Assembly (NCBI GenBank): GCA_001508005.1
Contig: LGEZ01000009.1
Coordinates: 2,493 to 66,492, forward strand
DNA: 64,000 bases
DNA from: Clostridia bacterium 41_269
GTDB taxonomy: Bacteria > Bacillota > DTU086
Direction: 5' to 3'
The notes under the pieces were generated by a model. It saw only the letters and a program-made list of their open reading frames with translations. It was not told the DNA's origin and made no database searches. Positions 3,829 to 42,380 of this stretch are shown here, piece by piece. The first letter of the stretch is position 1, and each line of letters opens with the position of its first letter. The translations under genes were made by a program, and so were the position numbers.

Positions 3829-4716
3829 TTGGTGAAACAAGAAATAGAATGGTTTATACATTATCTTTCTGTGGAAAAAGGTCTGTCTGAGAATACTCAA
3901 AACTCATACCGGCTTGATTTATTATCCTTTGCTTCCTTCCTTGCCCAGGAGAATAAATATTCATTTGCAGAAGTTGATAAATCCGACATTCTTCACTATA
4001 TAGTTTATCTTCAGCAAAAGGGGAGAGCCCCTGCTACCATAGCACGTCAGCTGGCTGCCATTAAGGCTTTCTATCGTTTTAGATTAATGGAGGGGTTACA
4101 GGAGAGGGAACCTACCCAGGATCTCGAATCTCCCAAATTAGGCAGACGCCTTCCCAAAATATTAACCCAACGGGAAATGGAAAAACTTCTTGAACAGCCT
4201 GATATTACAAAACCTGCAGGCCTTCGAGATAGGGCTATTTTAGAAGTCTTATATGCCACTGGCCTTAGGGTTTCGGAATTGGTTTCTTTAAATGTAGGGG
4301 ATGTAGATTGTAATACAGGCTACATTAGATGCACGGGAAAAGGAGATAAAGAAAGAATTGTGCCAATAGGCTCAATTGCTGTTTTCTATTTGAAAAATTA
4401 TTTAAACGAAGGAAGAACAAAGTTAATAAAGAGATCTGTGGAAGCCCTTTTTCTGAACAGCAGAGGCCAAAGATTAACAAGACAGGGATGTTGGAAAATA
4501 ATAAAGAAATATGTTCGTCAGGCAGGGATAAAAAAAGTTGTTACTCCTCATACAATAAGGCATACTTTTGCAACTCACATGCTGCAGAACGGTGCTGATT
4601 TAAGGTCTGTACAGGAAATACTGGGTCATTCCGACATCTCTACGACTCAGATTTATACTCACCTAACAACAAAACGCATAAGGGAAATTTATGATCGAAC
4701 TCATCCCAGGGCATAG
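3829..4716 (+). CDS. xerD: site-specific tyrosine recombinase XerD
   Basis: C-terminal catalytic motifs HTIRHTFATHMLQNGADLRSVQEILGHSDISTTQIYTHL (R..HxxR..Y). GTG start. Confidence 0.85.
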   Translation: MVKQEIEWFIHYLSVEKGLSENTQNSYRLDLLSFASFLAQENKYSFAEVDKSDILHYIVYLQQKGRAPATIARQLAAIKAFYRFRLMEGLQEREPTQDLESPKLGRRLPKILTQREMEKLLEQPDITKPAGLRDRAILEVLYATGLRVSELVSLNVGDVDCNTGYIRCTGKGDKERIVPIGSIAVFYLKNYLNEGRTKLIKRSVEALFLNSRGQRLTRQGCWKIIKKYVRQAGIKKVVTPHTIRHTFATHMLQNGADLRSVQEILGHSDISTTQIYTHLTTKRIREIYDRTHPRA

Positions 4717-5957: not shown

Positions 5958-7273
5958 ATGAGAGCATATGATTTAATTTTAAAAAAAAAAGAAACGGAAG
6001 CAGCCTTTCAGCAGATGAAATTAATTTTTTGATAAATGGATTTTTAAATGGTGAAATTCCAGATTACCAAATGGCAGCATTTTTGATGGCAGTATATTTC
6101 CGCGGCATGGATGTTGATGAAACAGCTGCTTTAACTAAGGCTCTGGTGAATTCTGGGGAAAAGGTTGATCTAACTGCTGTTCCGGGCGTGAAAATAGACA
6201 AGCACAGCACCGGAGGCGTTGGAGATAAAACAACTCTTGTACTGGTACCTTTAGTGGCCAGCGCGGGAGTTACTGTCGCTAAAATGTCCGGAAGGGCTTT
6301 AGGACACACTGGAGGCACAGCGGATAAGCTTGAAAGCATACCAGGTTTTAAAACAGAAATGCCTTTAAACGAGTTTGTGGAAATAGTTTCTAAGGTTGGA
6401 GCAGCTTTAATAGGGCAGTCAAAGGAGCTGGTTCCTGGGGATAAAAAACTTTATGCTTTAAGGGATGTTACTGCTACCGTGGACAGCATTCCTCTAATTG
6501 CAAGCAGTGTAATGTCAAAAAAAATTGCTGCGGGCTGTGATGCTGTTGTTCTTGATGTTAAAGTGGGCAGCGGAGCATTTATGAAAGATATTGAAGAAGC
6601 GCGGAAGTTGGCATCACTAATGGTAAATCTGGGTTCTTTTTTTGGCATGCCAACTACTGCAGTGCTTTCAAAGATGGATCAGCCCCTGGGCTTTGCCGTG
6701 GGAAATGCTCTGGAAGTAAAGGAAGCAATAAGCACCTTAAAAGGTGAAGGTCCGGAAGATCTTGTAGAACTATGTATAGAATTGGGTGCTCATATGCTCA
6801 GGCTCAGCGGTGATAAAAGGGATCTTTTAGATATTAAAATAGATCTAGAAAAAAATTTTTTAAAAACCGGTAGAGCATTGGATAAGTTCAGGGAAATAGT
6901 CTCTGCTCAGGGAGGAGACCCAACGGTTTTAGAAGATCTTGATAAGCTGCCGAAAGCGGAGCATATAAGCTGTGTTTATTCTGAAAAGGATGGTTATGTT
7001 GCTGAAATCGATGCGGAAAAAATAGGTACAGCTGCTATGATTTTGGGGGCTGGTAGGATTAAAAAAGAACAGCCAATAGATCATTCAGCCGGTCTGATAA
7101 TTAAGAAAAAATTAGGGGATAAGGTACAAGGGGGAGAAGTGCTGGTGGAGATGCATTCTAATAAGAAGGAAACTTTTTTAAGGGCAGGGGAATTGATAAA
7201 TACTGCTTTTAAGATTAAGGAGTTTAAACCTCATATGCCCTCAACTATAATAGAAACCGTAACTCAGCAATAA
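5958..7273 (+). pseudogene. pdp: pyrimidine-nucleoside phosphorylase, reading frame broken in an A10 run (5981-5990)
   Basis: ATG at 5958 gives MRAYDLILKKK then stops. The conserved continuation RNGSSLSADEINFLINGFLNGEIPDYQ... is in the -1 frame and joins the 6029..7273 ORF. One or two extra or missing A restore an intact Pdp. Confidence 0.8.
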
Positions 7274-19261: not shown

Positions 19262-19342
19262 TCTGCGGTTTTTATACCCTTTACAAGGGAGTTTATTTCC
19301 TGTAGAATTACACTATAATTTTAATTTTTATATATAAAAGCT

Positions 19343-19379
19343 GAGAAGAGAGGAGAGGAGAAAGTTGAGAGGAGAAGAA
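19343..19379 (+). promoter_or_regulatory. (G)AG triplet-repeat cluster overlapping the RBS and start of trpB2, a candidate TRAP-type translational operator
   Basis: GAG at 19343, 19348, 19353 and 19358 with period 5. Then GAG at 19367 and 19372 and GAA at 19377. The TTG start at 19365 lies inside the cluster. Confidence 0.45.
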
Positions 19380-20678
19380 AAATTTACAAAAATTGTGCTG
19401 AACGAAGAGGAAATACCTACAAAGTGGTACAACATTCAGGCAGATATGCCTAAACTGCCGGATCCACCTTTGAATCCAGCAACCCGCGAGCCCATTAAGC
19501 CTGAAGATCTGTCTCACCTTTTTCCCATGGAATTAATTGAACAAGAAGTCAGCACAGAAAGATACATTGAAATACCCGAGGAAGTGCAGAACCTCTATCG
19601 CTTATGGAGGCCAACTCCCCTTATAAGAGCCCGCAGACTTGAAAAAGCTCTAGATACGCCTGCAAAAATATTTTATAAGTATGAAGGAGTAAGTCCGGCA
19701 GGGAGCCACAAACTTAATACTTCTATTCCCCAAGCATATTACAACAAGCGGGAAGGTATAAAAAGAATTACAACCGAAACAGGGGCAGGACAGTGGGGTA
19801 GCGCCCTGAGCATGTCGTGTAATTTTTTTGGAATGGAATGCGTAGTTTATATGGTTCGTGTGAGTTATGATCAAAAACCTTACCGCAGAACCTTTATGCA
19901 GGTTTTTGGTGCTCAGGTTGTTCCCAGTCCCAGCCAGCGTACAAAGGCTGGAAGAAAGGCTCTGGAGTTAGATCCCAATACTCCAGGAAGCCTGGGCCTA
20001 GCCATAAGTGAAGCTGTAGAAGAAGCTGCTTCAAGGGATGATACAGCTTATTCCCTTGGCAGCGTGTTAAATCATGTTGTGCTGCACCAGACCGTTATTG
20101 GACAAGAAGTTAAAGCGCAGATGGAAAAGGTTGATGCATACCCTGATATAATAATTGGCTGCTGTGGAGGAGGAAGTAATTTTGCAGGTTTGGCTTTTCC
20201 TTTTATAAAAGATAAATTTGAAGGTAAAAAAATTAAGGTTATTGCTGTAGAACCTGCTGCTTGTCCCACATTAACCCAAGGAAGCTTTCAATATGACTAT
20301 GGAGGTACAGCAAAGATGACCCCTTTAATGAAAATGTACACCCTGGGGTATGATTTTGTTCCTTCAGGCATACATGCAGGGGGATTAAGATATCATGGCG
20401 AATCCCCATTGGTAAGCCAGCTGTATCATGATGGATATATAGAAGCTGTTTCATACAAGCAGACTGAAATTTTTGAGGCTGCAGTTACCTTTGCTAAAAA
20501 TGAAGGCATAATTCCGGCTCCAGAAAGTGCCCATGCTATAAAAGCAGCAATAGATGAAGCATTGAAATGCCGCGAGGCAGGAGAATCTAAAAATATTGTA
20601 TTTGGATTAAGCGGCCATGGCTATTTTGATATGTCGGCTTATGATGCTTATTTAAGCGGTTCCCTGATGGATGTATAG
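19365..20678 (+). CDS. trpB2: tryptophan synthase beta chain, TrpB2 type (stand-alone)
   Basis: 437 aa with the N-terminal extension [12 protein letters not shown] and PLP-lysine motif GSHKLN, characteristic of TrpB2. Located outside the trp operon. Confidence 0.8.
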
Positions 20679-22899: not shown

Positions 22900-23883
22900 A
22901 TGAAAGGCAGAATTTTAAGCGGAATGCGTCCAACAGGCAGGCTTCATATAGGGCATTTAAGCGTGCTTGAAAATTGGGTTAAACTTCAAGAAGAATATGA
23001 AACTTTTTTTATGGTAGCGGATTGGCATGCACTGACCACAGCTTTTGATGAAACCGAAGAAATTAAAAACAAAATTTGGGACATGCTTCTGGATTGGCTC
23101 AGTGTGGGCATAGATCCAGAAAAAAGTGTTGTTTTTGTTCAATCCCATGTAAAGGAACACGCGGAACTGCACCTGCTTTTTTCTATGATTACACCCCTTT
23201 CGTGGCTTGAAAGATGTCCCACTTATAAAGATCAGGTTCAGCAGTTTGGAGAAAGGGGAAAGGACATAAGCACATATGGTTTTTTGGGATATCCCCTTCT
23301 TCAAGCAGCTGATATATTAATATACAGAGCGGATACCGTTCCCGTAGGAGAAGATCAGCTTCCCCATCTTGAATTATGCCGCGAAGTAGCAAGAAGATTT
23401 AATTATCTGTATAATGCAAAAGTTTTTCCAGAACCCCAGGCGAAACTGGCAAAGCTGCCTTTACTGCCTGGTATTGACGGGCGAAAAATGAGTAAAAGCT
23501 ACAACAATGATATTTCCATCACTGCGGATTTTGATGAAATCAGCAGCAGAGTGAGACAGATGATAACTGATCCTCAAAGGATACACAAAAACGATCCAGG
23601 TAATCCCGAAGTCTGCACAGTATATCTTTACCATAAAATATATAACCCGGATGAACTGGAAGAAATTGAAGCAAACTGCAGAGGAGGAAAGATTGGTTGT
23701 GTAGCCTGCAAAAAGAAACTTGCGGTTAAAATGGACGAAGCGTTGGGGCCTATCCGCGAGAGAAGAAAAGAATTGGAGAAAAAGCCCCAGCTCATTGAAG
23801 ATATAATTGCAGATGGTGCTGAGAAAGCAAGAAAAGAAGCTTCAAAAACTATGGAAAAGGTAAGAGAAGTTATGAGAATTTAG
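22900..23883 (+). CDS. trpS: tryptophan--tRNA ligase
   Basis: Class I aaRS motifs: HIGH variant (GRLHIGH) and KMSKS. Confidence 0.9.
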   Translation: MKGRILSGMRPTGRLHIGHLSVLENWVKLQEEYETFFMVADWHALTTAFDETEEIKNKIWDMLLDWLSVGIDPEKSVVFVQSHVKEHAELHLLFSMITPLSWLERCPTYKDQVQQFGERGKDISTYGFLGYPLLQAADILIYRADTVPVGEDQLPHLELCREVARRFNYLYNAKVFPEPQAKLAKLPLLPGIDGRKMSKSYNNDISITADFDEISSRVRQMITDPQRIHKNDPGNPEVCTVYLYHKIYNPDELEEIEANCRGGKIGCVACKKKLAVKMDEALGPIRERRKELEKKPQLIEDIIADGAEKARKEASKTMEKVREVMRI

Positions 23884-31944: not shown

Positions 31945-32045
31945 AACACCAAATTTGTGAATATGTCCTAAATATACAGAGGATAAGCTGGAGGATAAAC
32001 TTTTCCACCTCCGCATATCTTATAAATACAGAACGGAGGTGGAAA

Positions 32046-32534
32046 ATGATGAATTTTTTTAGTTTTTTTAAATGGATTGAAAGGTTTTTAATAGCATGCA
32101 CAGTGCTTAGTTTTGCCCTTCTTATTTTAGGTCAATTTATGATGATCATAAATCCTGTGGATTTTTATATGAATTTTGCTGAAAAGATTGAAGGAAAAAC
32201 AGTTAATTTTTATGAAGAATTTCCTGAAATGAGGGTTGCTTCCCAAAATTTCCAGTCAGTTTTTGCCACTATAACGATAAGACTTGAAAACTTTTCATCC
32301 CTGGAAAAAGCAGTTCTTCTAATAAATGGGAAAGAAGTGGCGGATTTTAGAAAAAAGCAGGTTACAGTTAAGGTTTCACAGGGTGACGTGCTGGCAATTG
32401 ACGGTACATACTATGTTCATGATTTGACGTTTAAAGTTGTTTCTGTTTCTGAAAATGTTAGACAACCCAAAAAAGGGCAGATTGTTAATGTAAGTGGAGA
32501 TGTTGTTGTGATTGGCCCAGTGGAGCTTAAATAA
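32046..32534 (+). CDS. hypothetical membrane-anchored protein
   Basis: N-terminal TM helix. No known motifs. Confidence 0.3.
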   Translation: MMNFFSFFKWIERFLIACTVLSFALLILGQFMMIINPVDFYMNFAEKIEGKTVNFYEEFPEMRVASQNFQSVFATITIRLENFSSLEKAVLLINGKEVADFRKKQVTVKVSQGDVLAIDGTYYVHDLTFKVVSVSENVRQPKKGQIVNVSGDVVVIGPVELK

Positions 32535-32593
32535 GAGCTTTTATGTTTTAATATGTTTTAAAAAATTTATAAAAATGCTCCGGGGGTGAGAAG

Positions 32594-33007
32594 ATGAACT
32601 ACGGCAGCAAAGGGGTTGCAGCTACAGCGATTCAAATGGCTCTAACAGAAAATAGGGAGGAAGAAGCAAAACTTAAAAAAAAGTTTGCTGAAATTGGTAT
32701 TGCAGCAGCAGCTGTGGATTATGGTGGTGAATTTATAAATTCAGTTAAAAAAATAGTTGAAAGAGCGGTTGTAGCAGCCAAGAGGGAAGGAGTAATAAAG
32801 GAATCCCATTCTGAAGAAGGTGCTGTAGCTGGTGCTACGAGGGAAGCCTTATCTCAGATAGTACCCAAAGCTCTGGGATTAAATGTAGGTGGAAAAATTG
32901 GTATTGCCAGATATCAGGATCATATATCAGTGGCAATATTTTTTGGAATAGGCCTTCTGCATTTAGATGAAGTTGCCATAGGACTTGGACATAGAGCCAT
33001 TGGTTGA
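32594..33007 (+). CDS. HutP-family RNA-binding protein (anti-terminator family)
   Basis: Aligns by eye with B. subtilis HutP across conserved blocks: GVI.ES..E.HA..AT.EAL and the C-terminal H..VAI..G.G.....E.A.G.GH. About 137 aa, like HutP. Confidence 0.6.
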   Translation: MNYGSKGVAATAIQMALTENREEEAKLKKKFAEIGIAAAAVDYGGEFINSVKKIVERAVVAAKREGVIKESHSEEGAVAGATREALSQIVPKALGLNVGGKIGIARYQDHISVAIFFGIGLLHLDEVAIGLGHRAIG

Positions 33008-33032
33008 TTTCTGTATAGCTGGGGGATAAAAA

Positions 33033-33398
33033 ATGATTACAGTTGGTATACGGGGAGCTATAACAGTGGAAAAAAATACAAAGGAGTGCATTTTTGCTTC
33101 CACGAAGGAACTTGTCTCAGAAATTATGAAGCAGAATAACTTAAAGGAGCAGGATATTGCCAGCATTATTTTTACTGCAACCCCTGATCTCGATGCAGCC
33201 TTTCCTGCAGCTGCCGTCCGCGAAATGGGTTTAAATGAAGCTGCACTTTTGGATGCTGTAGAAATGAATGTTAAAAGCAGTATGCCTAGGGTAATAAGAG
33301 TGCTGATGCACGTAAATGTAAAAGAGGGTTTCAAACCAAAACATATTTACTTAAAAGAAGCAGTAAAATTAAGATCTGACATGTTTTGTAAAAAATAA
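33033..33398 (+). CDS. aroH: monofunctional chorismate mutase, AroH class
   Basis: MITVGIRGAITVE... and ATPDLDAAFPAAAVRE match B. subtilis AroH. 121 aa. Confidence 0.8.
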   Translation: MITVGIRGAITVEKNTKECIFASTKELVSEIMKQNNLKEQDIASIIFTATPDLDAAFPAAAVREMGLNEAALLDAVEMNVKSSMPRVIRVLMHVNVKEGFKPKHIYLKEAVKLRSDMFCKK

Positions 33399-33440
33399 AC
33401 AGATTTAAGCGTAAAAAAAAAGTCATATTTGTTTTTTTTT

Positions 33441-33474
33441 TTGAAAATTGCCAGCATTTATTATGTGTGATAAT
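33441..33474 (+). promoter_or_regulatory. candidate promoter of the trp operon leader
   Basis: TTGAAA / TTGCCA -35 candidates and TGtGATAAT extended -10. Spacing is not ideal for either pairing. Confidence 0.3.
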
Positions 33475-33498
33475 ATAGCAGCAAACTAAATATGGGAA

Positions 33499-33546
33499 GA
33501 GTTGAGCTGAGATGAGATGAGATGAGGGGAGAGGAGCTGAGATGAG
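33499..33546 (+). promoter_or_regulatory. trp leader RNA-binding site: 10 consecutive GAG triplets with 2-nt spacers (TRAP-type)
   Basis: GAG at 33499, 33504, 33509 ... 33544, exact 5-nt period. Lies between the candidate promoter and the terminator. Confidence 0.6.
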
Positions 33547-33565
33547 GCTGGTGGTATTGGAGCGA

Positions 33566-33597
33566 AACCAGTGCTCATTTTAGCACTGGTTTTTTGT
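33566..33597 (+). terminator. trp leader attenuator terminator
   Basis: AACCAGTGCT-catttt-AGCACTGGTT perfect 10 bp stem plus TTTTTTG. An alternative antiterminator pairs ATGAGgCTGGT (33542-33552, includes GAG 10) with ACCAGtgCTCAT (33567-33578). Confidence 0.7.
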
Positions 33598-33631
33598 TTC
33601 TTTGATTAAAAAATTTTTAGGAGGCTGGTTC

Positions 33632-35116
33632 ATGAAACCTGGTTTAAATGAATTTTTAACTTTTGCCCAAAGGGAAAATATTGTTCCAGTATGGGATGAG
33701 ATAGATATATACGATGAGACTCCCATATCGGTTTTTGAAAAGATTGCTGATGAAAGAGAGATTTCATATCTTCTGGAAAGTGCTGATGCAGGAGAACAGG
33801 GTGCACGATATTCATTTATGGGTATTAAACCCATTGCCAAATTCAGTGCAAAAGGTTCCCTTATTAGAATAGAGGAGGAAGGATATGAACAAAAATGTTT
33901 TGGTAATCCCACAGCTCTATTAAAAAATTTTTTAAAAAAATATTATATCGATAACCAAACTGTAGATGATGTGGTGAATTTTTGCGGCGGCGCTGTGGGA
34001 TATCTATCTTATGACTGGGTTCGTTACCTTGAGAATATACCCATAAAGAGCATAGATGATCTGGGGCTGCCCGATGGTATGTTTATTATTTTTAAAATAA
34101 ATCTTTTGTTCGATCATCTAAAAAATACTTTAAAAATCATAGTTTTGACTAAAACAGAAAAAAATCCTGAAATGGAGTACAAGCAGGCCATATCTTTGAT
34201 AAACAGTATAAAAGAAAAAATTTACCGCCGTAATTGCTTAAAAGGCAGCGTAGAAATTAACGGGTGCGTTCCCAACATTATATTTTCTGCTACTTTAAAC
34301 CATGATGATTATGTGAAAGGTGTAAAAAAAATCCTTGAATATATAAGAGCAGGAGATATATTTCAAGCTGTTCTTTCAACCCGTCTGGAAACAAAAGTTG
34401 TGGAAAGCCCTCTAAAAATTTACAGATGCTTAAAAATGATCAATCCTTCTCCCTATATGTTTTACCTGAATTATCCAGGATTTCAGCTCATAGGTGCATC
34501 CCCTGAGATGCTTGTGAAAGTTGAAAAAGGAAAAATATACAATAGGCCCATTGCAGGCACCCGCCCCCGAGGCAGTAGTGAAGAAGAAGATAAGATCCTT
34601 GCGGAAGAACTTAAAAAGGATCCCAAAGAAAAGGCAGAACACATCATGCTTGTAGATCTTGCCAGGAATGATGTGGGTAGGACTGCGCAGTTTGGAACTG
34701 TTAGGGTGCCTGAACTGATGGCTGTTGAAAAATATTCCCATGTAATGCATTTAGTGTCTCTTGTGGAAGGCAGACTTGCAGAAGATAAAAATGCTGTGGA
34801 CGCCTTAATGGCATGTTTCCCTGCTGGTACTGTATCTGGGGCTCCTAAAGTGAGAGCCATGGAAATTATAGAAGAGCTGGAACCTGTGAGAAGGGGGCCC
34901 TATGCTGGATCGGTTGGTTATTTTAGTTTAAATGGAGATATGGATACCTGCATAACCATTAGGACTATCCTAATTAAGGATAATAGAGCCTATGTCCAGG
35001 TAGGAGCTGGAATTGTAGCAGATTCTAAACCTGATAAAGAATATGAGGAGTGTATTAATAAGGGAAAAGCGTTGATTTCAGCCCTGTATGCTGCTGAAAG
35101 GAGGGCTATTTCATGA
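33632..35116 (+). CDS. trpE: anthranilate synthase component I
   Basis: Chorismate-binding motifs (AGTRPRG, LLESADAGE). ATG 33632 after an AGGAGG RBS. Confidence 0.9.
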   Translation: MKPGLNEFLTFAQRENIVPVWDEIDIYDETPISVFEKIADEREISYLLESADAGEQGARYSFMGIKPIAKFSAKGSLIRIEEEGYEQKCFGNPTALLKNFLKKYYIDNQTVDDVVNFCGGAVGYLSYDWVRYLENIPIKSIDDLGLPDGMFIIFKINLLFDHLKNTLKIIVLTKTEKNPEMEYKQAISLINSIKEKIYRRNCLKGSVEINGCVPNIIFSATLNHDDYVKGVKKILEYIRAGDIFQAVLSTRLETKVVESPLKIYRCLKMINPSPYMFYLNYPGFQLIGASPEMLVKVEKGKIYNRPIAGTRPRGSSEEEDKILAEELKKDPKEKAEHIMLVDLARNDVGRTAQFGTVRVPELMAVEKYSHVMHLVSLVEGRLAEDKNAVDALMACFPAGTVSGAPKVRAMEIIEELEPVRRGPYAGSVGYFSLNGDMDTCITIRTILIKDNRAYVQVGAGIVADSKPDKEYEECINKGKALISALYAAERRAIS

Positions 35117-35691
35117 TACTGGTCTGCGATAATTACGACTCTTTTACCTATAATCTCGTCCAGTATTTAGGTGAACTGGGTGCGGAAACCTTTGTTTTCA
35201 GAAACGATGAATTGAGACCTCAAGATTTTTGTAATCTGGAACAGTATGTCAGGGGCGTTGTAATTTCTCCTGGCCCCGGAAAACCTGAGGATGCGGGTAT
35301 ATCTATGGATCTGGTGAGATATTTTGCAGGCAGGGTACCGGTTCTGGGAATATGTTTGGGCCATCAGTGCATAGGCAGGGTTTTCGGGGGAGAAATTGTG
35401 CCTGCAAAAGCCCTTTTTCATGGAAAGACTTCTGAAATCAGGCATGATGGAAAAGTGCTTTTTGAAAATGTTTCAAACCCTTTTACAGCGACCAGGTATC
35501 ATTCCCTGGTCATTGACAGAAAGAAAATTCCTGCATGTCTGGAGGTGACTGCAGAGACGGAAGATGGAGAGGTAATGGGGGTGAGGCACAGGGATTTTAA
35601 AATTGAGGGTCTTCAGTTTCATCCTGAATCTATTTTGACTTTAGAGGGAAAAAAGATAATATCAAATTTTTTAAACATGTGTGCTGATTAG
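35113..35691 (+). CDS. trpG: anthranilate synthase component II (glutamine amidotransferase)
   Basis: GATase class I motifs (GICLGHQ catalytic Cys, HPES). Confidence 0.9.
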   Translation: MILVCDNYDSFTYNLVQYLGELGAETFVFRNDELRPQDFCNLEQYVRGVVISPGPGKPEDAGISMDLVRYFAGRVPVLGICLGHQCIGRVFGGEIVPAKALFHGKTSEIRHDGKVLFENVSNPFTATRYHSLVIDRKKIPACLEVTAETEDGEVMGVRHRDFKIEGLQFHPESILTLEGKKIISNFLNMCAD

Positions 35692-35726
35692 AATAGCTGA
35701 GATCAGCTGAGATTAGCTGAGAGGAG
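35689..35726 (+). promoter_or_regulatory. NAG triplet repeats (8 at exact 5-nt period) spanning the trpG stop and trpD RBS
   Basis: UAG, UAG, GAG, CAG, GAG, UAG, GAG, GAG at 35689, 35694 ... 35724. The last two form the GAGAGGAGG SD of trpD (GTG 35735). Confidence 0.5.
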
Positions 35727-35734
35727 GAATTCAA

Positions 35735-36747
35735 GTGAGAGAATACATTGCAAAAATTTCCGATGGGGTTGATCTGACAGCATCTGAGGCTGAGCGTGCA
35801 ATGGAAATGATTATGGATGGAAATGCTACAGCTGCGCAAATAGGTGCTCTGCTTATGGGACTCAAACTAAAGGGAGAATCTTCTCAGGAAATTACTGGTT
35901 TTGCAAGGGCTATGAGGCGTCGAGCTTTGGGGTTTAAAGTACCCATGGATGTTGTGGATACCTGTGGTACTGGGGGGATTATGCAGAAACTTTTAATATA
36001 TCCACTGCTGCTGCTTTTGTGGCAGCTGGTGCAGGAGTTCCAGTAGCCAAACACGGAAACAGATCAGTGTCAAGCCGGTGTGGAAGTGCAGATGTCCTTG
36101 AAAGGTTGGGAGTAAATATTGACCTTGAACCGAAACATGCGGAAAAATGCCTTCGCGAAATAGGAATTTCCTTTCTGTTTGCTCCCAGATACCACAGAGC
36201 AACAAAAAATGCAATGGGACCAAGAAAGGAGTTGGGTATAAAAACTATTTTTAATATTTTAGGACCGTTAACCAATCCAGCGGGTGCAAGCAGTCAGGTT
36301 GTAGGTGTATTTGATCCTGAATTGACCGAGACAATAGCGGAGGTTCTTGCTGCACTGGGCACGAAAAGGGCATTTGTTGTCTGCGGTAGTGATGGTTTAG
36401 ATGAAGTTACGATAACGGGAACCACCAGGATTACAGAATTAAATGCAGGTTTTATTCAGACCTATGATTTCGATCCCAGGGAACTGGGCTTTAAATTAAG
36501 GAACATTGAAGATTTAAAAGGCGGTGATCCAGAGAAAAATGCTGAGATTCTTTTGAACGTGCTTGAAGGGGAAGAGGGGCCCAAAAGGGAAGCGGTGGTT
36601 TTGAATGCTGCCTTTGCCATTCTTGCCGGAAATAAGGCTTTTTCCCTTAAGGAAGCTGTAGAAAAAGCTGAGCACAGCATCGACAGCGGGGCAGCGCTAA
36701 AAAAGCTTTACGATCTGAAAAAATTTACAGGAAGCTGTGTTGCATAA
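35735..36747 (+). pseudogene. trpD: anthranilate phosphoribosyltransferase, frame broken in a G6 run (35972-35977)
   Basis: Upstream ORF ends ...[13 protein letters not shown]. Adding one G gives [41 protein letters not shown]..., continuous with ORF 36019..36747 and matching the GTGGD motif. Confidence 0.85.
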
Positions 36748-37526
36748 TGCTGGATAAGATTATTATCAGTAAAAAAAAGAAACTTAAAGAGATTGTTTCC
36801 ATTGATTATCTTAGGAAACTGGAAAACAAAATTTTAAAACTACCTTCTCCAAAAGATTTCAAAGAAAGCTTAAAGAGAGAAAAGGGCGAGAAAATAAAAA
36901 TTATTGCTGAAATCAAGCGTGCTTCCCCTTCTAAAGGCTTAATTGCAGAAAATTTTGAACCCAAAAGATATGCAGGTGAATATGAAAGGGCAGGAGCAGC
37001 AGCGGTTTCTGTGCTTACTGAGGAGGATTATTTTCTAGGAAGTTTGATGCACCTGAATGAGGTGAGATCTGTCTGCAGTCTTCCTATTCTGAGAAAAGAT
37101 TTTATCCTTCACCCTGTTGAGATTTACGAAGCTCGTGCCTATGGATCAGATGCAGTGCTTTTAATAGTAAAGATTCTGGATAAAAAGAGTTTAAAAGCAC
37201 TGCTTAATCTAACAAGGGAACTTGAGATGCAGGCTCTTGTGGAAGTACATTCAGAAAAGGAGCTGGAATTAGCCCTTGAAGTTGGAGCTGAAATAATAGG
37301 TATTAATAACCGCAATCTTGAGGATTTTACTGTTGATTTTAGGGTTACAGAAAGGCTTGCTGAACTCATTCCAAATGATAAAGTAGCTGTTAGTGAAAGC
37401 GGGATTAAACATGCCCGTGAAGTGCGTTTTTTAGAAGCCTTGGGGATAGATGCAATTCTAGTTGGGGAAACCCTGATGCGAAGTCCCGATCCTTATCAAA
37501 CTTTAAAAAATTTTTTGGAGGAGTAG
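36747..37526 (+). CDS. trpC: indole-3-glycerol phosphate synthase
   Basis: TIM-barrel IGPS motifs (IIAEIKRASPSKG, GINNRNL). Confidence 0.9.
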   Translation: MLDKIIISKKKKLKEIVSIDYLRKLENKILKLPSPKDFKESLKREKGEKIKIIAEIKRASPSKGLIAENFEPKRYAGEYERAGAAAVSVLTEEDYFLGSLMHLNEVRSVCSLPILRKDFILHPVEIYEARAYGSDAVLLIVKILDKKSLKALLNLTRELEMQALVEVHSEKELELALEVGAEIIGINNRNLEDFTVDFRVTERLAELIPNDKVAVSESGIKHAREVRFLEALGIDAILVGETLMRSPDPYQTLKNFLEE

Positions 37527-37531
37527 GGATT

Positions 37532-38167
37532 ATGGTAAGGGTGAAAATATGCGGTATAAAAACCTTTGAAGATGCCCGGTATGCAGTGGAGTATGGTGCC
37601 CATGCCCTGGGATTCGTATTTTGTGAAAGCAGAAGAAGAATAGACCCCCTGATGGCCAGGGAAATTATAAGGTCCATTCCGCCCTTTGTGATGAAAGTGG
37701 GTGTTTTTATGGATCAAGATTTGGAATATGTTTTAAGTGTTGTGGATTTCTGCGGTTTGGATGCCGTTCAGCTTCATGGCACTGAAACCCCGCAGTACTG
37801 CAGCCAATTTGAAAAACTGCCCTGCCAGGTAATAAAGGCTTTCAGAGTTAAAGATGATGGTGTAATTGATGAAATTAAAAAATATAAAGTGGATGCCTAT
37901 CTGCTTGACAGCTGGGTCCGGGGCAAACCTGGGGGAACTGGGAAAAAATTTGATTGGGACATAGCAAAAAATATTGTAAAGAAAAGCAGCAGGCCGGTCA
38001 TTCTTGCAGGGGGGCTAAATGAAAAAAATGTGGCAAAAGCGGTAATGGAGGTTTCTCCCTATGCTGTGGATGTAAGCAGTGGTGTTGAAAGTTCTGGAAA
38101 GAAAGATAAAAACAAAATAATTCGTTTTATGAATGAAGTGAGGAGGATTAATCTTGCAATTGCATAG
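37532..38167 (+). CDS. trpF: phosphoribosylanthranilate isomerase
   Basis: MVRVKICGI... PRAI N-terminus. About 210 aa. Confidence 0.85.
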
Positions 38168-39344
38168 ATCGGCATACTTTGGAGAATACGGTGGACAGTT
38201 TGTGCCTGAAACTGTTATGCCCGCTTTAAAGGAACTCGAGGAAGAGTACTATAAAGCTGTGAATGATGAAAATTTCAAAAGGGAACTGAATTATTATCTT
38301 AGGGAATATGTGGGCAGACCCACTCCGCTCTATTATGCTGAACGGCTGTCAGAAAAGCTTGGAGGAGCAAGAATATATCTCAAAAGGGAAGATCTGAACC
38401 ACACGGGTGCCCACAAAATAAACAATACCATAGGTCAGGCACTCCTCGCATTAAGAATGGGAAAAACAAGGGTGATTGCGGAAACGGGTGCTGGGCAGCA
38501 TGGGGTTGCTACAGCAACTGCGGCGGCTTTGTTTGGGCTTCAGTGCCAGATATTTATGGGAGAAGAAGATATGAAGCGGCAAGAGCTTAATGTTTTCCGT
38601 ATGGAACTATTGGGAGCCGAGGTGGTGCCCGTAAAAAGCGGAACCCGTACCTTAAAGGATGCTACCAATGAAGCTATTAGGGATTGGGTTACCAACGTTA
38701 GAAATACCCACTATATAATCGGTTCAGTGGTAGGCCCCCATCCATATCCCACTATTGTGAGGGATTTCCAGAAAATTATAGGGGAAGAAATTAGAAAGCA
38801 GTTTCAAGAAATAGTGGGCGGCTGTCCCGATTATATCATTGCTTGTGTTGGAGGCGGCAGTAATGCCATGGGTACTTTTTACCCCTTTATTGAGCAGAAG
38901 AAGGTACGGCTGATAGGAGTTGAAGCTGCGGGCTGTGGCATATCAACAGGAAAACATGCTGCATCCTTAAGTGCAGGCAGTCGGGGTATTCTCCATGGTA
39001 CCCTAACATACATTCTTCAGGATGAGTTTGGGCAGATTGAACCTGCTCATTCCATATCTGCAGGTCTTGACTACCCGGGAGTAGGTCCTGAGCATGCTTT
39101 TTTAAAAGACAAAGGGCGTGTGGTATATACTTCAGTAACGGATTATGAAGCCCTTGAGGCTTTTCATCTGCTGGCCAAAACTGAAGGCATACTGCCTGCC
39201 CTGGAGAGTGCCCATGCTTTAGCTTATGCAGCGAAAATAGCTCCTAAACTGAAAGAAGATAATACTATCGTTGTTACACTGTCGGGAAGAGGGGATAAAG
39301 ATGTACAGTGTGTGCTGGAACAGAAAAGGAGGAAAGGAAATTGA
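38154..39344 (+). CDS. trpB: tryptophan synthase beta chain (TrpB1, operon copy)
   Basis: [19 protein letters not shown]-lysine and GGGSNA motifs. Confidence 0.9.
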
Positions 39345-40198
39345 AGTCTTTAAAAAAAGAACTGATCCCGGCATCAGCTGAAGAAAGAGGTATATCGCGG
39401 GGAGAAAGACTGGAACAGCTTTTTTATGAAAAGAGAGAAATTAATGAGAAGGTATTAATAATTTACTTGTGTGCTGGCTATCCTGATTTGGATTTCAGCA
39501 GAGAACTTATTTTGACTGCTGTAAAAGCTGGGGCTGATATTATAGAAGTTGGGATTCCCTTTTCCGATCCCCTGGCAGACGGACCTGCGATACAGCATGC
39601 ATCACAGCAGGCCCTTCTCAAAGGAATGAATGCTGCCAAGGCTTTAGAGATGGCTGCTGATATAAAAAAATGCACAAAAATTCCACTTTTGCTGATGTCT
39701 TACTACAACCCCATTTACAGATACGGACTGGAAAAATTCTGCGGAGATGCTTTTAAGGCAGAAGTAGATGGTATTATTGTCCCCGATCTTCCTGTGGAAG
39801 AATCTGAGAAGCTTGTATCCATAACAAGAAATTTTGGGCTGGGATTTGTTCCTCTGGTTTCACCCACCAGCACTTTAGAAAGGCTGAAAAGAATATCTAA
39901 AACTGCACTGGGCTTTATATACTGTGTTTCCACAACAGGCACTACGGGCAGCACCATTCGTTCCTTTGGAGATGCAAAAGAAATGGCTGAAAAGCTCCGC
40001 AGCATTACTCAAAAACCCACAGCCCTTGGCTTTGGTATCGAGGGACCGGAACATGTTAGAATGGCAGCTCCTATGTTTGATGGGATTATTGTAGGAAGTG
40101 CAGTTATTCGAATTATTGAACATTTTAAAAAAAGCAGAGAATCCTGTTTTAAAGAAGTGGGCGAATTTATTTCTTCACTTAAAAAAGCATGCAGATAA
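39341..40198 (+). CDS. trpA: tryptophan synthase alpha chain
   Basis: [22 protein letters not shown] motif. TTG start at 39341 overlaps the trpB stop, with an AAGGAGG RBS. An alternative ATG is at 39308. Confidence 0.85.
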
Positions 40199-40370
40199 GA
40201 AAATTTTGTATTGTAACAATTTAAAACCTGTGCTACTATACCCTTTAAAAGAGTTTTAAATATTGATTTAATTTGAAATTTGGGGCAGAACGGCGTAGGC
40301 TTTTGTACAGTTTTTTGGAAGATTGGTAGGACGGTAGGGGCAGATGGGATTATACTGCCGTTTTGCCGTA

Positions 40371-40405
40371 ATCACTCCTACCTTTCTTCAAGGAGTGATT
40401 TTTTG
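40371..40405 (+). terminator. intrinsic terminator/attenuator hairpin in the trpA-DAHP synthase intergenic leader
   Basis: ATCACTCCT-11 nt loop-AGGAGTGAT 9 bp stem plus T5-7. Upstream GGTAGG copies (40326, 40334) can pair with CCTACC (40377-82) as an antiterminator. Confidence 0.5.
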
Positions 40406-40506
40406 ATTTCCCGTCTGCTTAATAAAAAAAGGGGGTGTAAAAAAAGAAATTTTATTAGTATTTCCCGGATTTATCAATACTACGGAAGAACGGAGGTTGA
40501 TTTAAA

Positions 40507-41535
40507 TTGATTATTGTAATGAGCCGTGAGGCAACTGATGAACATATTGAAAATGTAAAGAGGCGCTTGGAAAAAGAAGGGTTCAGCATCCATCTTTCAA
40601 AGGGTGTTGCCCGTACAGTTATAGGAGCCATAGGCGACAAAACAAGGATTCCTTTACTGGCTTTAGAAGCAATGCCTGGAGTTGAAAAAGTGGTACCAAT
40701 TCTTCAGCCTTATAAGCTTGCGAGCCGTGAATTTAAAGATGAACCCACAATTATTAAAATAAGAAATGTTGAAATTGGAGGAGATACCATTCACGTCATA
40801 GCTGGTCCCTGTGCTGTGGAAAGCAGGGAACAGTTGCTGGAGACAGCACACATGGTTAAGGAAGCAGGAGCTACTCTGCTTCGGGGAGGGGCTTTTAAAC
40901 CCCGTACTTCACCATACAGCTTTCAGGGTTTGGGAGAGGAAGGGTTGAAAATTCTTGCTGAAGCCAGAGAAGAAACAGGTCTTCCCATTGTTACCGAAGT
41001 AATGGATATAGAAAGCCTCCCTGTGGTTTATGAGTACACAGATGTTTTTCAAATTGGGGCTAGAAATATGCAGAACTTCAATCTGCTTAGAAAAGTAGGT
41101 GAAACGGATAAACCGGTGCTTTTAAAAAGGGGACCCAGCGCCACCATTGAAGAATGGCTTTTAGCCGCTGAATATATTATGTCCTCGGGAAATTATCAGG
41201 TTATTTTATGTGAAAGGGGCATTCGTACCTTTGAGCAGTTTACGCGCAATACATTGGATTTAAGCGCAGTGTGCGCGGTAAAAATGCTGTCGCACCTTCC
41301 GGTGATTGTTGATCCCAGCCACGGAACAGGAAAATGGCAGTTGGTGTCTCCCATGTCCAGGGCTGCAGTAGCAGCAGGAGCAGATGGACTTATAATAGAA
41401 GTTCATCCAAATCCCAGCGAAGCTTTATCTGATGGTCCACAATCCTTGACACCAGACAATTTTAGAGATCTTATGAACGAATTGATACAAATTGCCCCTG
41501 TGCTGGGAAGAAAAATGGCGGTGGATCGTGAATGA
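40507..41535 (+). CDS. aroF: 3-deoxy-7-phosphoheptulonate (DAHP) synthase, type I-beta with N-terminal ACT/ferredoxin-like regulatory domain
   Basis: About 80 aa N-terminal regulatory domain then KDO8PS-like DAHPS core ([24 protein letters not shown]). Thermotoga-type architecture. Confidence 0.85.
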
Positions 41536-42380
41536 AGGCTGCTTATTTGGGCCCATGGGGGACTTTTTCGGAGGAAGCAGCCTGCCGATGGATGGAACGA
41601 ATGAAACTTTCTGGAGAGTTGATTCCCTGTACCTTTATTCCTGAAGTTTTTATCATGGTAGAAAAAAAAGAAAGCCGATGTAGGAATTGTTCCCGTGGAG
41701 AATTCCATTGAAGGAACCGTGGGGTTATCTCTGGATTACTTAAAAAATTTTCCCAACCTTTATATTATAGGGGAGGTAGTTTTACCCATCCGGCACTGCA
41801 TTGCTGTTAAAAATATGAAAAACTTTGATTTTACCGAAATAAAATATATATATTCCCATTCCCAAGCTCTGGGGCAGTGCAGGGAGTTTTTAGAAATAAA
41901 TTTTCCGGGGTGCGAATTGAGGCAGACTTCAAGCACAGCTGAAGCTGCCTCAATCGTAGCTTCCGGATTGTCAGGGCAAGCTGCAGCCATCTGTTCTCCC
42001 TTTGCAGCAGAGAAATACGGTCTTACGATTATTGCCTCGGATATACAGGATTATCCTAATAACAAAACCAGATTTTTTGTAGTGGAAAAAAAGCCTTTAA
42101 AATTTTTAAATGACAAAGGACCAGGCAAAACTTCTATGGTTTTTTCCCTTCCTGAAGACAGTCCTGGTTCCCTTTATATGGTGCTGAAATATTTTGCAGA
42201 AGAGAAAATTAACCTGACAAAAATAGAATCAAGGCCGGCAAAAAAAGAGCTGGGGCACTATTTTTCTATTTGGATTGTGAGGGGTATGCTTGGGAAGAGC
42301 CCCTTGCTTCCGTAATAGAAAGGCTTGAGGAAAAAACATTGTTTTTAAAAATTTTAGGCTCATATCCCCGAGCCTGTTAG
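41534..42380 (+). pseudogene. pheA: prephenate dehydratase with C-terminal ACT domain, frame broken twice (A8 at 41662-41669, T5 at 42261-42265)
   Basis: [17 protein letters not shown]-terminus in one frame. Removing one A gives ...MVEKKKADVGIVPVENSIEGTVG. Adding one T gives ...GHYFFYLDCEGYAWEEPLASVIERLEEKTLFLKILGSYPRAC*. Confidence 0.8.

What the first reader, a model, noticed from the sequence alone, without database searches (positions are those of the whole stretch)
35689..35740. Second NAG-repeat operator overlapping the trpG stop and trpD ribosome-binding site
Eight NAG triplets occur at an exact 5-nt period (UAG UAG GAG CAG GAG UAG GAG GAG, 35689-35726). The first is the trpG stop codon. 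The last two form the trpD Shine-Dalgarno (GAGAGGAGG), 8 nt before the GTG start at 35735. In B. subtilis, TRAP also represses translation of trpG, trpP and ycbK by binding such repeats across the SD. An internal trpD translational operator inside the operon is unusual.
Basis: seen in the sequence. Interest (0 to 1): 0.65.

Follow-up and report, generated by a model that had tools for sequence, protein, structure and literature searches.

The report
Protein-binding repeat blocking trpD translation start
Eight evenly spaced NAG triplets cover the ribosome-binding site of trpD inside a tryptophan operon, and related bacteria keep this feature, so it is most likely a landing pad where a tryptophan-sensing RNA-binding protein (probably TRAP) shuts off translation of the downstream pathway genes.

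Summary
Eight NAG triplets with exact 2-nt spacers lie at 35689-35726. They run from the trpG stop codon into the trpD Shine-Dalgarno, 8 nt before the GTG start. Chance does not explain it: the window has only three runs of 5 or more on either strand, and all three sit at Trp genes (trpE leader, trpD RBS, trpB2 RBS).

In 21 orthologous operons, 17 have 4-6 periodic NAGs abutting the trpD start. Eleven other gene starts in the same loci never exceed 2.

It is not a second attenuator, since no terminator follows. It is not a T-box or a HutP-type site. The best reading is a translational operator of the B. subtilis trpG/trpP/ycbK kind, applied to trpD. It splits the operon into trpEG and trpDCFBA.

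The binding protein is inferred, not shown. TRAP is not in the window or in any fetched trp locus. It is common in related Clostridia, always at dnaE-mtrB-acc-pfkA-pyk. A HutP-fold gene lies upstream of aroH in nearly all 80 species sampled and is a minority rival.

Verdict: a new member of a known kind, of moderate interest.

The parts
35689..35726 (+). Array of eight NAG triplets (UAG UAG GAG CAG GAG UAG GAG GAG) with 2-nt spacers. This is the proposed protein-binding operator.
   Evidence: Conserved in orthologous junctions. No significant RNA structure (z = -0.52).
35719..35727 (+). trpD Shine-Dalgarno GAGAGGAGG, formed by the last two triplets of the array.
   Evidence: A 7-nt spacer separates it from the GTG at 35735.
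35735..36747 (+). trpD (anthranilate phosphoribosyltransferase), GTG start. It is read as two ORFs (35735-36046 and 36019-36747) because of a 1-nt deficit in a G run at about 35963-35968.
35113..35691 (+). trpG (glutamine amidotransferase of anthranilate/aminodeoxychorismate synthase). Its stop codon is triplet 1 of the array, and its start overlaps the trpE stop by 4 nt.
33602..35116 (+). trpE (anthranilate synthase component I).
   Evidence: Chorismate_bind 5e-95, Anth_synt_I_N 2.8e-33.
33499..33546 (+). First array of the operon: ten GAG triplets with 2-nt spacers in the trpE leader.
   Evidence: An array of 6-12 triplets is present in every fetched locus where trpE follows aroH.
33564..33603 (+). 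Intrinsic terminator of the leader (12-bp stem plus U tract). The minimum-free-energy fold of the leader instead pairs the 3' half of the array with the 5' terminator arm, forming an antiterminator.
   Evidence: z = -3.9.
33448..33476 (+). Promoter-like hexamers (TTGCCA-17-TAATAT with an extended TG) upstream of the leader.
   Evidence: This is a consensus match only.
36747..40198 (+). trpC, trpF, trpB and trpA, with overlapping or nearly abutting reading frames downstream of trpD. They are the genes expected to follow trpD translation.
19338..19374 (+). Third NAG array (AAG GAG GAG GAG GAG, then AAG GAG GAG after a 1-nt spacer) over the RBS and start of trpB2.
   Evidence: The gene 19365-20678 matches the TrpB-like PLP enzyme family (NF009057, 3.6e-227). 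The closest TrpB2 relatives in metagenomes also carry 4-6 triplets.
32594..33007 (+). HutP-family gene (HutPL), two genes upstream of the leader. It is the rival candidate for the NAG-binding protein and is not shown to belong to the system.
   Evidence: Pfam HutP 2.8e-51. HutP fold, TM 0.69. Followed directly by aroH in nearly all 80 species sampled.
33033..33398 (+). aroH (AroH-type chorismate mutase), between HutPL and the trp leader.
   Evidence: CM_1 1.6e-43.

Best explanation
The array is a translational operator. A multimeric protein that reads NAG triplets spaced 5 nt apart binds the single-stranded trpG-trpD junction when tryptophan is plentiful. This protein is most probably TRAP (mtrB product), encoded elsewhere in the genome. 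It covers the trpD Shine-Dalgarno and the stretch up to the start codon, so 30S subunits cannot initiate on trpD.

The trpG-trpD gap (43 nt) is the only real intercistronic gap in the operon. trpE/trpG overlap by 4 nt, and trpD-C-F-B-A overlap or nearly abut. The operator therefore splits the operon into two translational units, trpEG and trpDCFBA, and adds a second layer of control to the attenuator in the leader (10 GAG triplets plus antiterminator and terminator). A third array on the trpB2 RBS belongs to the same regulon.

Shown here: the sequence anatomy, its improbability, its specificity for trpD among gene starts, its conservation across at least 20 species, the absence of a downstream terminator, and the absence of RNA structure. 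Inferred: the identity of the protein, tryptophan dependence, and the repressive outcome. Speculative: that uncoupling lets trpG stay expressed for folate synthesis, and that ribosomes terminating at the trpG UAG (triplet 1) displace the bound protein.
For: (1) Exact periodic array, with only three such runs in 128 kb of sequence, all at Trp genes.
(2) The geometry and base preference are those reported for TRAP targets: NAG with N = G~U>A>C and 2-3 nt spacers, 9-11 repeats in natural sites (PMC1474065; PMC3913778). Here there are 4 GAG, 3 UAG and 1 CAG, all with 2-nt spacers.
(3) The same operon has a leader with 10 GAG, a competing antiterminator and a terminator. No T-box or other Rfam family is found.
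(4) Conservation: among 21 orthologous trpD starts, 17 carry 4-6 periodic NAGs ending at the start codon, 2 carry 3, and 2 carry 1-2. The maximum is 2 for 11 other genes. The array stays next to trpD when the spacer grows to 187-409 nt and when trpG is deleted.
(5) In 1.23 Mb of related loci, arrays of 6 or more number 34 on the + strand and 0 on the - strand. Every aroH-trpE leader has one.
(6) The junction RNA is unstructured and no terminator follows it. This fits blocking of initiation rather than attenuation.
(7) TRAP is widespread in related Clostridia, including Carboxydothermus, Carboxydocella, Thermosyntropha and Syntrophomonadaceae. These are the same orders or families in which the arrays were found (L060 Carboxydocellales).
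(8) In B. subtilis, TRAP already controls trpD translation, indirectly through trpE-trpD coupling, and controls trpG translation from inside the folate operon (PMC2311275). The physiological logic therefore has a precedent.
Against: No mtrB was found in the 64-kb window, in 10 kb further upstream on the contig, or in any of the 80 related 20-kb loci. Its presence in this genome is therefore untested.

Eight triplets (4-6 in most relatives) is fewer than the 9-11 of characterised TRAP targets, so affinity may be low.

The array in this organism is partly a 10-nt tandem repeat that could have arisen recently by slippage.

A purine-rich RBS region favours GAG by itself.

trpD carries a frameshift in this assembly. 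If that is real, the operator would now regulate a pseudogene.
Confidence: 0.68

Rival explanations
1. The NAG arrays are read by the HutP-family protein (HutPL, 32594-33007) encoded just upstream of aroH, not by TRAP. This would be a HutP-fold oligomer that has become a tryptophan (or aromatic) sensor and acts as a functional analogue of TRAP.
For: HutPL has the HutP fold (TM 0.69; Pfam 2.8e-51), and HutP is a known NAG-triplet-binding protein (PMC2425495). HutPL lies directly upstream of aroH in nearly all 80 species sampled, and upstream of aroH-leader-trpE in about 25 of them. It is unusually conserved, at 72-96% identity across orders. No TRAP gene was seen in the window or in any related locus.
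Against: About 55 of the 80 HutPL-aroH loci have no trp operon and no NAG array within 10 kb, so the arrays track trp genes rather than HutPL. HutP binds 2 x 3 NAG with 4-nt spacers and a 12-17-nt linker on a D3 hexamer (PMC2425495). Arrays of 8-12 triplets with 2-nt spacers fit an 11/12-mer ring instead. GAG predominates here, whereas the HutP model RNAs and the mapped hut terminator sites in PMC2425495 use UAG. TRAP and HutPL occur in the same families or orders (Syntrophomonadaceae, Carboxydocellales), so they do not look like replacements for each other. HutPL is only about 19-20% identical to HutP, and sequence searches against PDB do not link them.
Confidence: 0.12
2. The periodic GAGs are not a repressor site. 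They form a multi-SD 'standby' or re-initiation platform that boosts trpD translation after the uncoupled trpG stop.
For: The triplets nearest the start create overlapping GGAG/GAGG motifs. trpD is the only gene in the operon without translational coupling to its upstream neighbour.
Against: Upstream triplets are UAG, CAG or AAG with non-purine spacers (ct, at) and are not SD-like, yet they keep the exact 5-nt register. The same periodic motif forms the leader array, where no translation starts. No other uncoupled gene start in these loci has it.
Confidence: 0.07
3. It is a neutral by-product: a slippage-generated 10-nt tandem repeat next to a strong SD, with no function of its own.
For: TRF finds AGCTGAGATC x2.8 at 94% identity. 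The array is longer here (8) than in most relatives (4-6).
Against: The closest relative keeps 7 of 8 positions as NAG in the same register, with substitutions that break the 10-nt repeat. In other genera the sequences differ but keep the NAG periodicity. The specificity for Trp genes also argues against it.
Confidence: 0.05

Closest known systems
TRAP translational operators of Bacillus subtilis (trpG in the folate operon; also trpP/yhaG and ycbK, from my own knowledge of the literature)
   Same: A run of NAG triplets with 2-3-nt spacers lies on unstructured RNA and overlaps the SD or start of a Trp-related gene. The trpG operator is likewise internal to a polycistronic operon. The expected outcome is tryptophan-dependent block of initiation (PMC1474065, PMC2311275, PMC7430163).
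   Different: The target gene is trpD, with trpB2 as a further target. I found neither described as a direct TRAP target in the searchable literature. The array has 8 triplets here and 4-6 in relatives, against 9-11 in known targets. The host is a clostridial lineage ('Peptococcaceae' MAG and Moorella-like relatives). TRAP itself was not seen in the available sequence.
TRAP control of trpD in B. subtilis via trpE-trpD translational coupling
   Same: trpD translation is lowered when the tryptophan-activated protein is bound to the trp mRNA (PMC2311275).
   Different: In B. subtilis the effect is indirect. TRAP in the leader causes sequestration of the trpE RBS, and trpD follows through a 29-nt overlap. 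Here trpG sits between trpE and trpD, the coupling is broken, and trpD has its own array.
TRAP-dependent trp leader attenuator
   Same: The same triplet motif is used, and the first array of this operon (33499-33546) has the full anatomy of array, antiterminator and terminator.
   Different: The junction array has no downstream terminator and no competing structure. It is therefore not a second attenuator.
HutP antiterminator site of the hut operon
   Same: The recognition unit is an NAG triplet, and a HutP-fold gene is encoded nearby.
   Different: HutP sites are two groups of three triplets with 4-nt spacers and a 12-17-nt linker, embedded in a terminator, and they activate expression (PMC2425495). 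This array has eight contiguous triplets with 2-nt spacers on an RBS.

Membership tests
TRAP-type translational operator | Tandem NAG triplets (N = G~U>A>C) separated by 2-3 nt | tested here: met
   Eight triplets, all with 2-nt spacers: 4 GAG, 3 UAG, 1 CAG. The criterion is taken from PMC1474065 and PMC3913778.
TRAP-type translational operator | 9-11 triplets, as in characterised natural targets | tested here: inconclusive
   There are 8 here and 4-6 in 17 of 21 orthologous junctions, which is below the 9-11 quoted in PMC1474065. Whether shorter arrays bind well enough was not testable.
TRAP-type translational operator | The array overlaps the Shine-Dalgarno and/or start codon of the regulated gene | tested here: met
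   Triplets 7-8 form GAGAGGAGG, 7 nt from the GTG. In relatives the last triplet overlaps the start codon itself.
TRAP-type translational operator | The binding region is single-stranded or unstructured | tested here: met
   The fold of 35640-35780 has z = -0.52, and 48 of 200 shuffles fold as well.
TRAP-type translational operator | The regulated gene belongs to tryptophan synthesis or transport | tested here: met
   trpD. The other two arrays in the window are at the trpE leader and at trpB2.
TRAP-type translational operator | The genome encodes TRAP (mtrB, PF02081) | not testable with these tools
   TRAP is absent from the window, from 10 kb further upstream and from 80 related loci. In Clostridia, however, mtrB sits at dnaE/ytrHI-mtrB-acc-pfkA-pyk, and that region is not in the window. 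TRAP is present in related families. The rest of this MAG could not be fetched.
TRAP-type translational operator | Tryptophan-dependent binding and repression | not testable with these tools
   This needs biochemistry or reporter assays.
TRAP-dependent transcription attenuator | The array overlaps an antiterminator that competes with a downstream intrinsic terminator | tested here: not met
   No terminator-like site lies between 35690 and 36200, and there is no significant structure. The feature is met by the leader array at 33499-33603 but not by the junction array.
HutP antiterminator site | Two sites of three NAG with 4-nt spacers, separated by a 12-17-nt linker, within a terminator | tested here: not met
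   The spacers are 2 nt, the eight triplets are contiguous, and there is no terminator. The criterion is taken from PMC2425495.
T-box / other curated RNA families | Match to an Rfam covariance model | tested here: not met
   cmscan of 32000-41000 at E <= 1 gave only a chance snoRNA hit inside trpF.

The most novel reading that the evidence does not exclude
The protein that reads these arrays is not TRAP but the HutP-fold protein that is encoded next to aroH in nearly all 80 species sampled. That would be a second, structurally unrelated NAG-reading oligomer recruited to repress tryptophan biosynthesis, the inverse of HutP's activating role. It would have its own effector and a regulon of trpE leader, trpD RBS and trpB2 RBS.
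Probability: 0.12. Interest if true: 0.85.

Novelty: new member of a known kind. Interest (0 to 1): 0.45.

Why it matters
If the operator works as proposed, it extends the TRAP paradigm beyond Bacilli. In clostridial trpEGDCFBA operons, where trpG breaks the trpE-trpD coupling used by B. subtilis, control of trpD appears to be restored by a dedicated operator, and a stand-alone trpB2 is drawn into the same regulon.

It gives a compact, testable example of a single operon divided into separately translated blocks by an RNA-binding protein.

It also suggests how such arrays grow, by 10-nt (two-triplet) tandem duplication.

Finally, it flags an uncharacterised, extremely conserved HutP-fold protein tied to aroH, whose function in aromatic amino-acid metabolism is unknown.

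Tried and rejected
- **TRAP in the available sequence.** tblastn and a TRAP HMM on six-frame ORFs found nothing in the window or in 80 HutPL loci, and nothing in 80 TrpB2 loci.
- **TRAP in the same assembly.** I looked up contigs of seven TRAP proteins to see which assemblies carry them, checked source names for 20 more, and walked 10 kb upstream on the contig. None matched GCA_003510095.1, GCA_012523575.1 or metagenome 3300010240. That left the question open.
- **Literature.** No open-access paper links HutP-family proteins to trp operons or describes a trpD TRAP site. The key reviews (PMC2387123, PMC9404307, PMC177173) are not held.
- **Second attenuator.** Rejected, because no terminator or competing structure follows the junction array.
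- **Known RNA family.** Rejected.
- **Minus-strand coding.** Only a 69-aa TTG ORF (35630-35839) with no support overlaps the site.
- **HutP-style 7-nt periodicity around HutPL.** Period-7 runs are not clearly enriched. The hits are unrelated heptamer repeats or inverted repeats.
- **Sequence link from HutPL to solved HutP.** It fails by phmmer and by hmmsearch and is weak by hhalign. Only the predicted fold connects them.

Full report
**1. The observation.**
The sequence at 35689-35726 reads TAG aa TAG ct GAG at CAG ct GAG at TAG ct GAG ag GAG. That is eight NAG triplets at an exact 5-nt period.

- The first TAG is the stop codon of the ORF 35113-35691. This ORF is trpG (GATase 1.5e-58; trpG_papA subfamily).
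- The last two triplets make GAGAGGAGG (35719-35727). A 7-nt spacer separates it from the GTG at 35735.
- That GTG opens an ORF with the N-terminal domain of anthranilate phosphoribosyltransferase.

A scan of both strands of the window finds only three runs of 5 or more NAG at this period: 5 triplets at 19338, 10 at 33499 and 8 at 35689. In 200 Markov simulations of the window, runs of 5 and 6 occur 0.1 and 0.02 times per sequence, and runs of 7 or more never occur.

The array is also a 10-nt tandem repeat, AGCTGAGATC x2.8. Composition-based odds therefore overstate the case, and the weight must rest on comparative evidence.

**2. Surroundings.**
The gene order is ilvC, a 162-aa unknown, a HutP-family gene (HutPL), aroH, a leader, trpE, trpG, trpD, trpC, trpF, trpB, trpA, aroF, pheA, tyrA, aroA.

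The aroH-trpE leader contains four elements:
- a promoter-like site;
- ten GAG triplets with 2-nt spacers (33499-33546);
- a predicted hairpin that pairs the 3' half of the array with the 5' arm of a terminator (z = -3.9);
- a 12-bp terminator with a U tract (33564-33603).

This is the anatomy of a TRAP-type attenuator. No T-box or other Rfam family is present.

Within the operon, trpE and trpG overlap by 4 nt, and trpD through trpA overlap or nearly abut. The 43-nt trpG-trpD gap is the only real intercistronic space, and the array fills it.

The junction RNA has no significant structure (z = -0.52). No terminator follows it.

**3. A third array.**
The 5-triplet run at 19338 continues, after one 1-nt spacer, to about eight triplets. 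It covers the RBS and TTG start of the ORF 19365-20678. That ORF is a TrpB-like PLP enzyme, TrpB2 (NF009057, 3.6e-227, above its cutoff).

All three long arrays in the window therefore sit at tryptophan-biosynthesis genes. Among 75 TrpB2 relatives from metagenomes with readable upstream sequence, the closest ones (66-70% identity) also carry 4-6 triplets on their RBS. Sixty-five of the more distant ones have 2 or fewer.

**4. Conservation of the trpD array.**
A scan of one genome per species with a HutPL alignment returned 80 loci. About 25 of them have aroH followed by trpEGDCFBA.

- With a threshold of 6 or more triplets and 2-3-nt spacers, these 1.23 Mb hold 34 arrays on the gene strand and none on the other strand. 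Every aroH-trpE leader has one, with 6-12 triplets.
- Upstream of trpD, 17 of 21 species have 4-6 NAG triplets with exact 2-nt spacers ending at the start codon. Examples are Moorella GAGggGAGagGAGcaGAGtg, Thermincola AAGaaTAGctTAGagGAGgaGAGcaGAGatg and Desulfofundulus GAGggGAGacGAGtgAAGatg. Two species have 3, and two have 1-2.
- The same measure at the starts of 11 other genes in the same loci never exceeds 2, with means of 1.0-1.75.
- Where the trpG-trpD spacer has grown to 187-409 nt through inserted repeats, the array stays next to trpD.
- In the closest relative (95% HutPL identity), most of trpG is deleted. Yet seven of the eight triplet positions are still NAG in the same register: AAG AAG TTG GAG GAG TAG GAG GAG.

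The array therefore belongs to the trpD RBS. Its reach to the trpG stop in this organism is incidental to the short spacer.

The differences between the two closest sequences break the 10-nt repeat but keep the triplets. That argues for constraint on NAG rather than recent slippage alone. Both the leader and the junction arrays show a 10-nt sub-period. This suggests that arrays lengthen by duplicating two-triplet units.

**5. Which protein?**
TRAP targets are described as 9-11 NAG repeats (N = G~U>A>C) with 2-3-nt spacers that wrap around an 11- or 12-subunit ring (PMC1474065, PMC3913778, PMC3184956). HutP, by contrast, is a D3 hexamer that reads two groups of three triplets with 4-nt spacers and a 12-17-nt linker inside a terminator (PMC2425495). 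The arrays here have 8-12 contiguous triplets, 2-nt spacers and mostly GAG, which fits the TRAP pattern.

I could not find mtrB in any of the following:
- the window;
- 10 kb further upstream on the same contig;
- any of the 80 related loci.

However, TRAP is common in related lineages. A profile of divergent TRAPs retrieves Carboxydothermus, Carboxydocella, Thermosyntropha, Syntrophomonadaceae and many Clostridia/Bacillota MAGs. In those contigs mtrB always lies between dnaE or ytrH/ytrI and a small ORF followed by some or all of accD/accA, pfkA and pyk. That neighbourhood is not in the window. Its absence from the window therefore says nothing about the genome.

The window is JGI metagenome 3300010240 contig Ga0136450_100000004. 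It is identical over 20.4 kb to NCBI DOLA01000005.1, a 'Peptococcaceae bacterium' MAG.

**6. The HutP-family neighbour.**
HutPL matches Pfam HutP end to end. Its predicted structure (pLDDT 80) matches B. subtilis HutP at TM 0.69 with 19-20% identity. Sequence searches against PDB do not link the two.

HutPL is 72-96% identical across Moorellaceae, Thermincola, Desulfofundulus, Zhaonella and others. It is followed directly by aroH in nearly all 80 loci.

About 55 of those loci have no trp operon and no NAG array within 10 kb. TRAP and HutPL also occur in the same families or orders. I therefore treat HutPL as a minority rival for the array binder (about 0.12). In its own right it is an unexplained, conserved partner of aroH.

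**7. Mechanism proposed.**
When tryptophan is high, the activated ring protein acts at three places.
- It binds the leader and favours termination.
- On read-through transcripts it binds the junction array and occludes the trpD SD, blocking initiation. Through the tight downstream coupling this lowers translation of trpC, trpF, trpB and trpA.
- It similarly blocks trpB2.

Ribosomes terminating at the trpG UAG (triplet 1) would clash with protein bound to the first triplets. Repression may therefore depend on trpEG translation. As I recall it, translation-mediated displacement of this kind has been described for the B. subtilis pabB-trpG junction.

B. subtilis reaches the same end, TRAP control of trpD translation, indirectly through the 29-nt trpE-trpD overlap (PMC2311275). 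Here trpG interrupts that coupling and a direct operator stands in its place. One possible rationale is that trpG could then remain expressed for p-aminobenzoate synthesis while the Trp-specific genes are silenced. This is speculation.

**8. Comparison and novelty.**
The feature works like the known TRAP translational operators. It meets every sequence-level criterion except the number of triplets (8 against 9-11). It fails the criteria for an attenuator, a HutP site and a T-box.

Membership in the TRAP regulon cannot be certified without the protein.

I rate it a new member of a known kind, with interest 0.45. The HutPL reading is the high-novelty tail.

**9. Caveats.**
- trpD is split by a 1-nt deficit in a G run. 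The window has G6 where relatives imply G7.
- pheA is also split.
- The two database records are the same assembly, so assembly error cannot be excluded.
- All functional statements are inferences from sequence and comparison.

Noticed in passing
window 19338-19374 and 19365-20678: A third periodic NAG array covers the RBS and TTG start of a TrpB2 gene (TrpB-like PLP enzyme, NF009057 3.6e-227). The closest TrpB2 relatives in metagenomes also have 4-6 triplets there. I found no mention of trpB2 as a target of a TRAP-type regulator in the literature I searched.
   Followed up: partly
window 32594-33007; L006-L085: A HutP-fold protein, 72-96% identical across several clostridial orders, is encoded immediately upstream of aroH (type I chorismate mutase) in nearly all 80 species sampled, whether or not the trp operon follows. 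It matches no NCBIfam model, has no solved structure, and I found no literature on it. Its function is unknown.
   Followed up: partly
window 35960-35970 (trpD) and about 41535-41700 (pheA): trpD is split into two ORFs by a G6 run where relatives imply G7. pheA (PDT) is also called as two pieces. The JGI and NCBI records are identical over 20.4 kb, so this may be an assembly error or real pseudogenisation.
   Followed up: partly
L004/L006 12509-12663: In the closest relative (95% HutPL identity), trpG is almost entirely deleted from the operon and only a remnant of its 3' end is left. The NAG array in front of trpD is retained in register.
   Followed up: yes
window 35635-35662: Promoter-like hexamers (TTGACT-16-TAATAT) lie inside the 3' end of trpG, 27 nt upstream of the array. 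If active, they would make the array the 5' UTR of a trpDCFBA transcript. Promoter-like matches in the region are not more frequent than in shuffles, and this stretch is deleted in the closest relative.
   Followed up: no
window 33499-33546 and 35695-35722: Both arrays show a 10-nt sub-period (GAGATGAGCT; AGCTGAGATC). This suggests that arrays grow by tandem duplication of two-triplet units.
   Followed up: partly
window 32046-32534; about 30 of the L006-L085 loci: A 162-aa protein with no Pfam or NCBIfam match is conserved immediately upstream of HutPL in many species.
   Followed up: no
L086-L124: In Clostridia, mtrB (TRAP) has a fixed neighbourhood. dnaE or ytrI/ytrH (with murA further upstream in two contig sets) lies upstream. 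A 61-69-aa ORF (weak DUF2007 in some) follows, then some or all of accD/accA, pfkA and pyk. This differs from the folE (mtrA)-mtrB operon of B. subtilis.
   Followed up: partly
L042 about 6936-7126; L016 about 3834-4060; L015, L045, L046, L049: Some trpG-trpD spacers contain long inverted repeats of 7-nt CTAGNNN units or C/T-rich stretches complementary to GAG arrays. Tandem heptamers (CAGGAGT)n are scattered through several loci. Their significance is unknown.
   Followed up: no
L025 4630-4726: One relative has two adjacent leader arrays (7 + 11 triplets). This recalls the 19-triplet leader reported for B. halodurans, whose TRAP is a 12-mer (PMC3184956).
   Followed up: no
window 22900-23883: trpS (tryptophan--tRNA ligase, TIGR00233) lies between trpB2 and the trp operon. 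No NAG array or Rfam hit was examined upstream of it.
   Followed up: no
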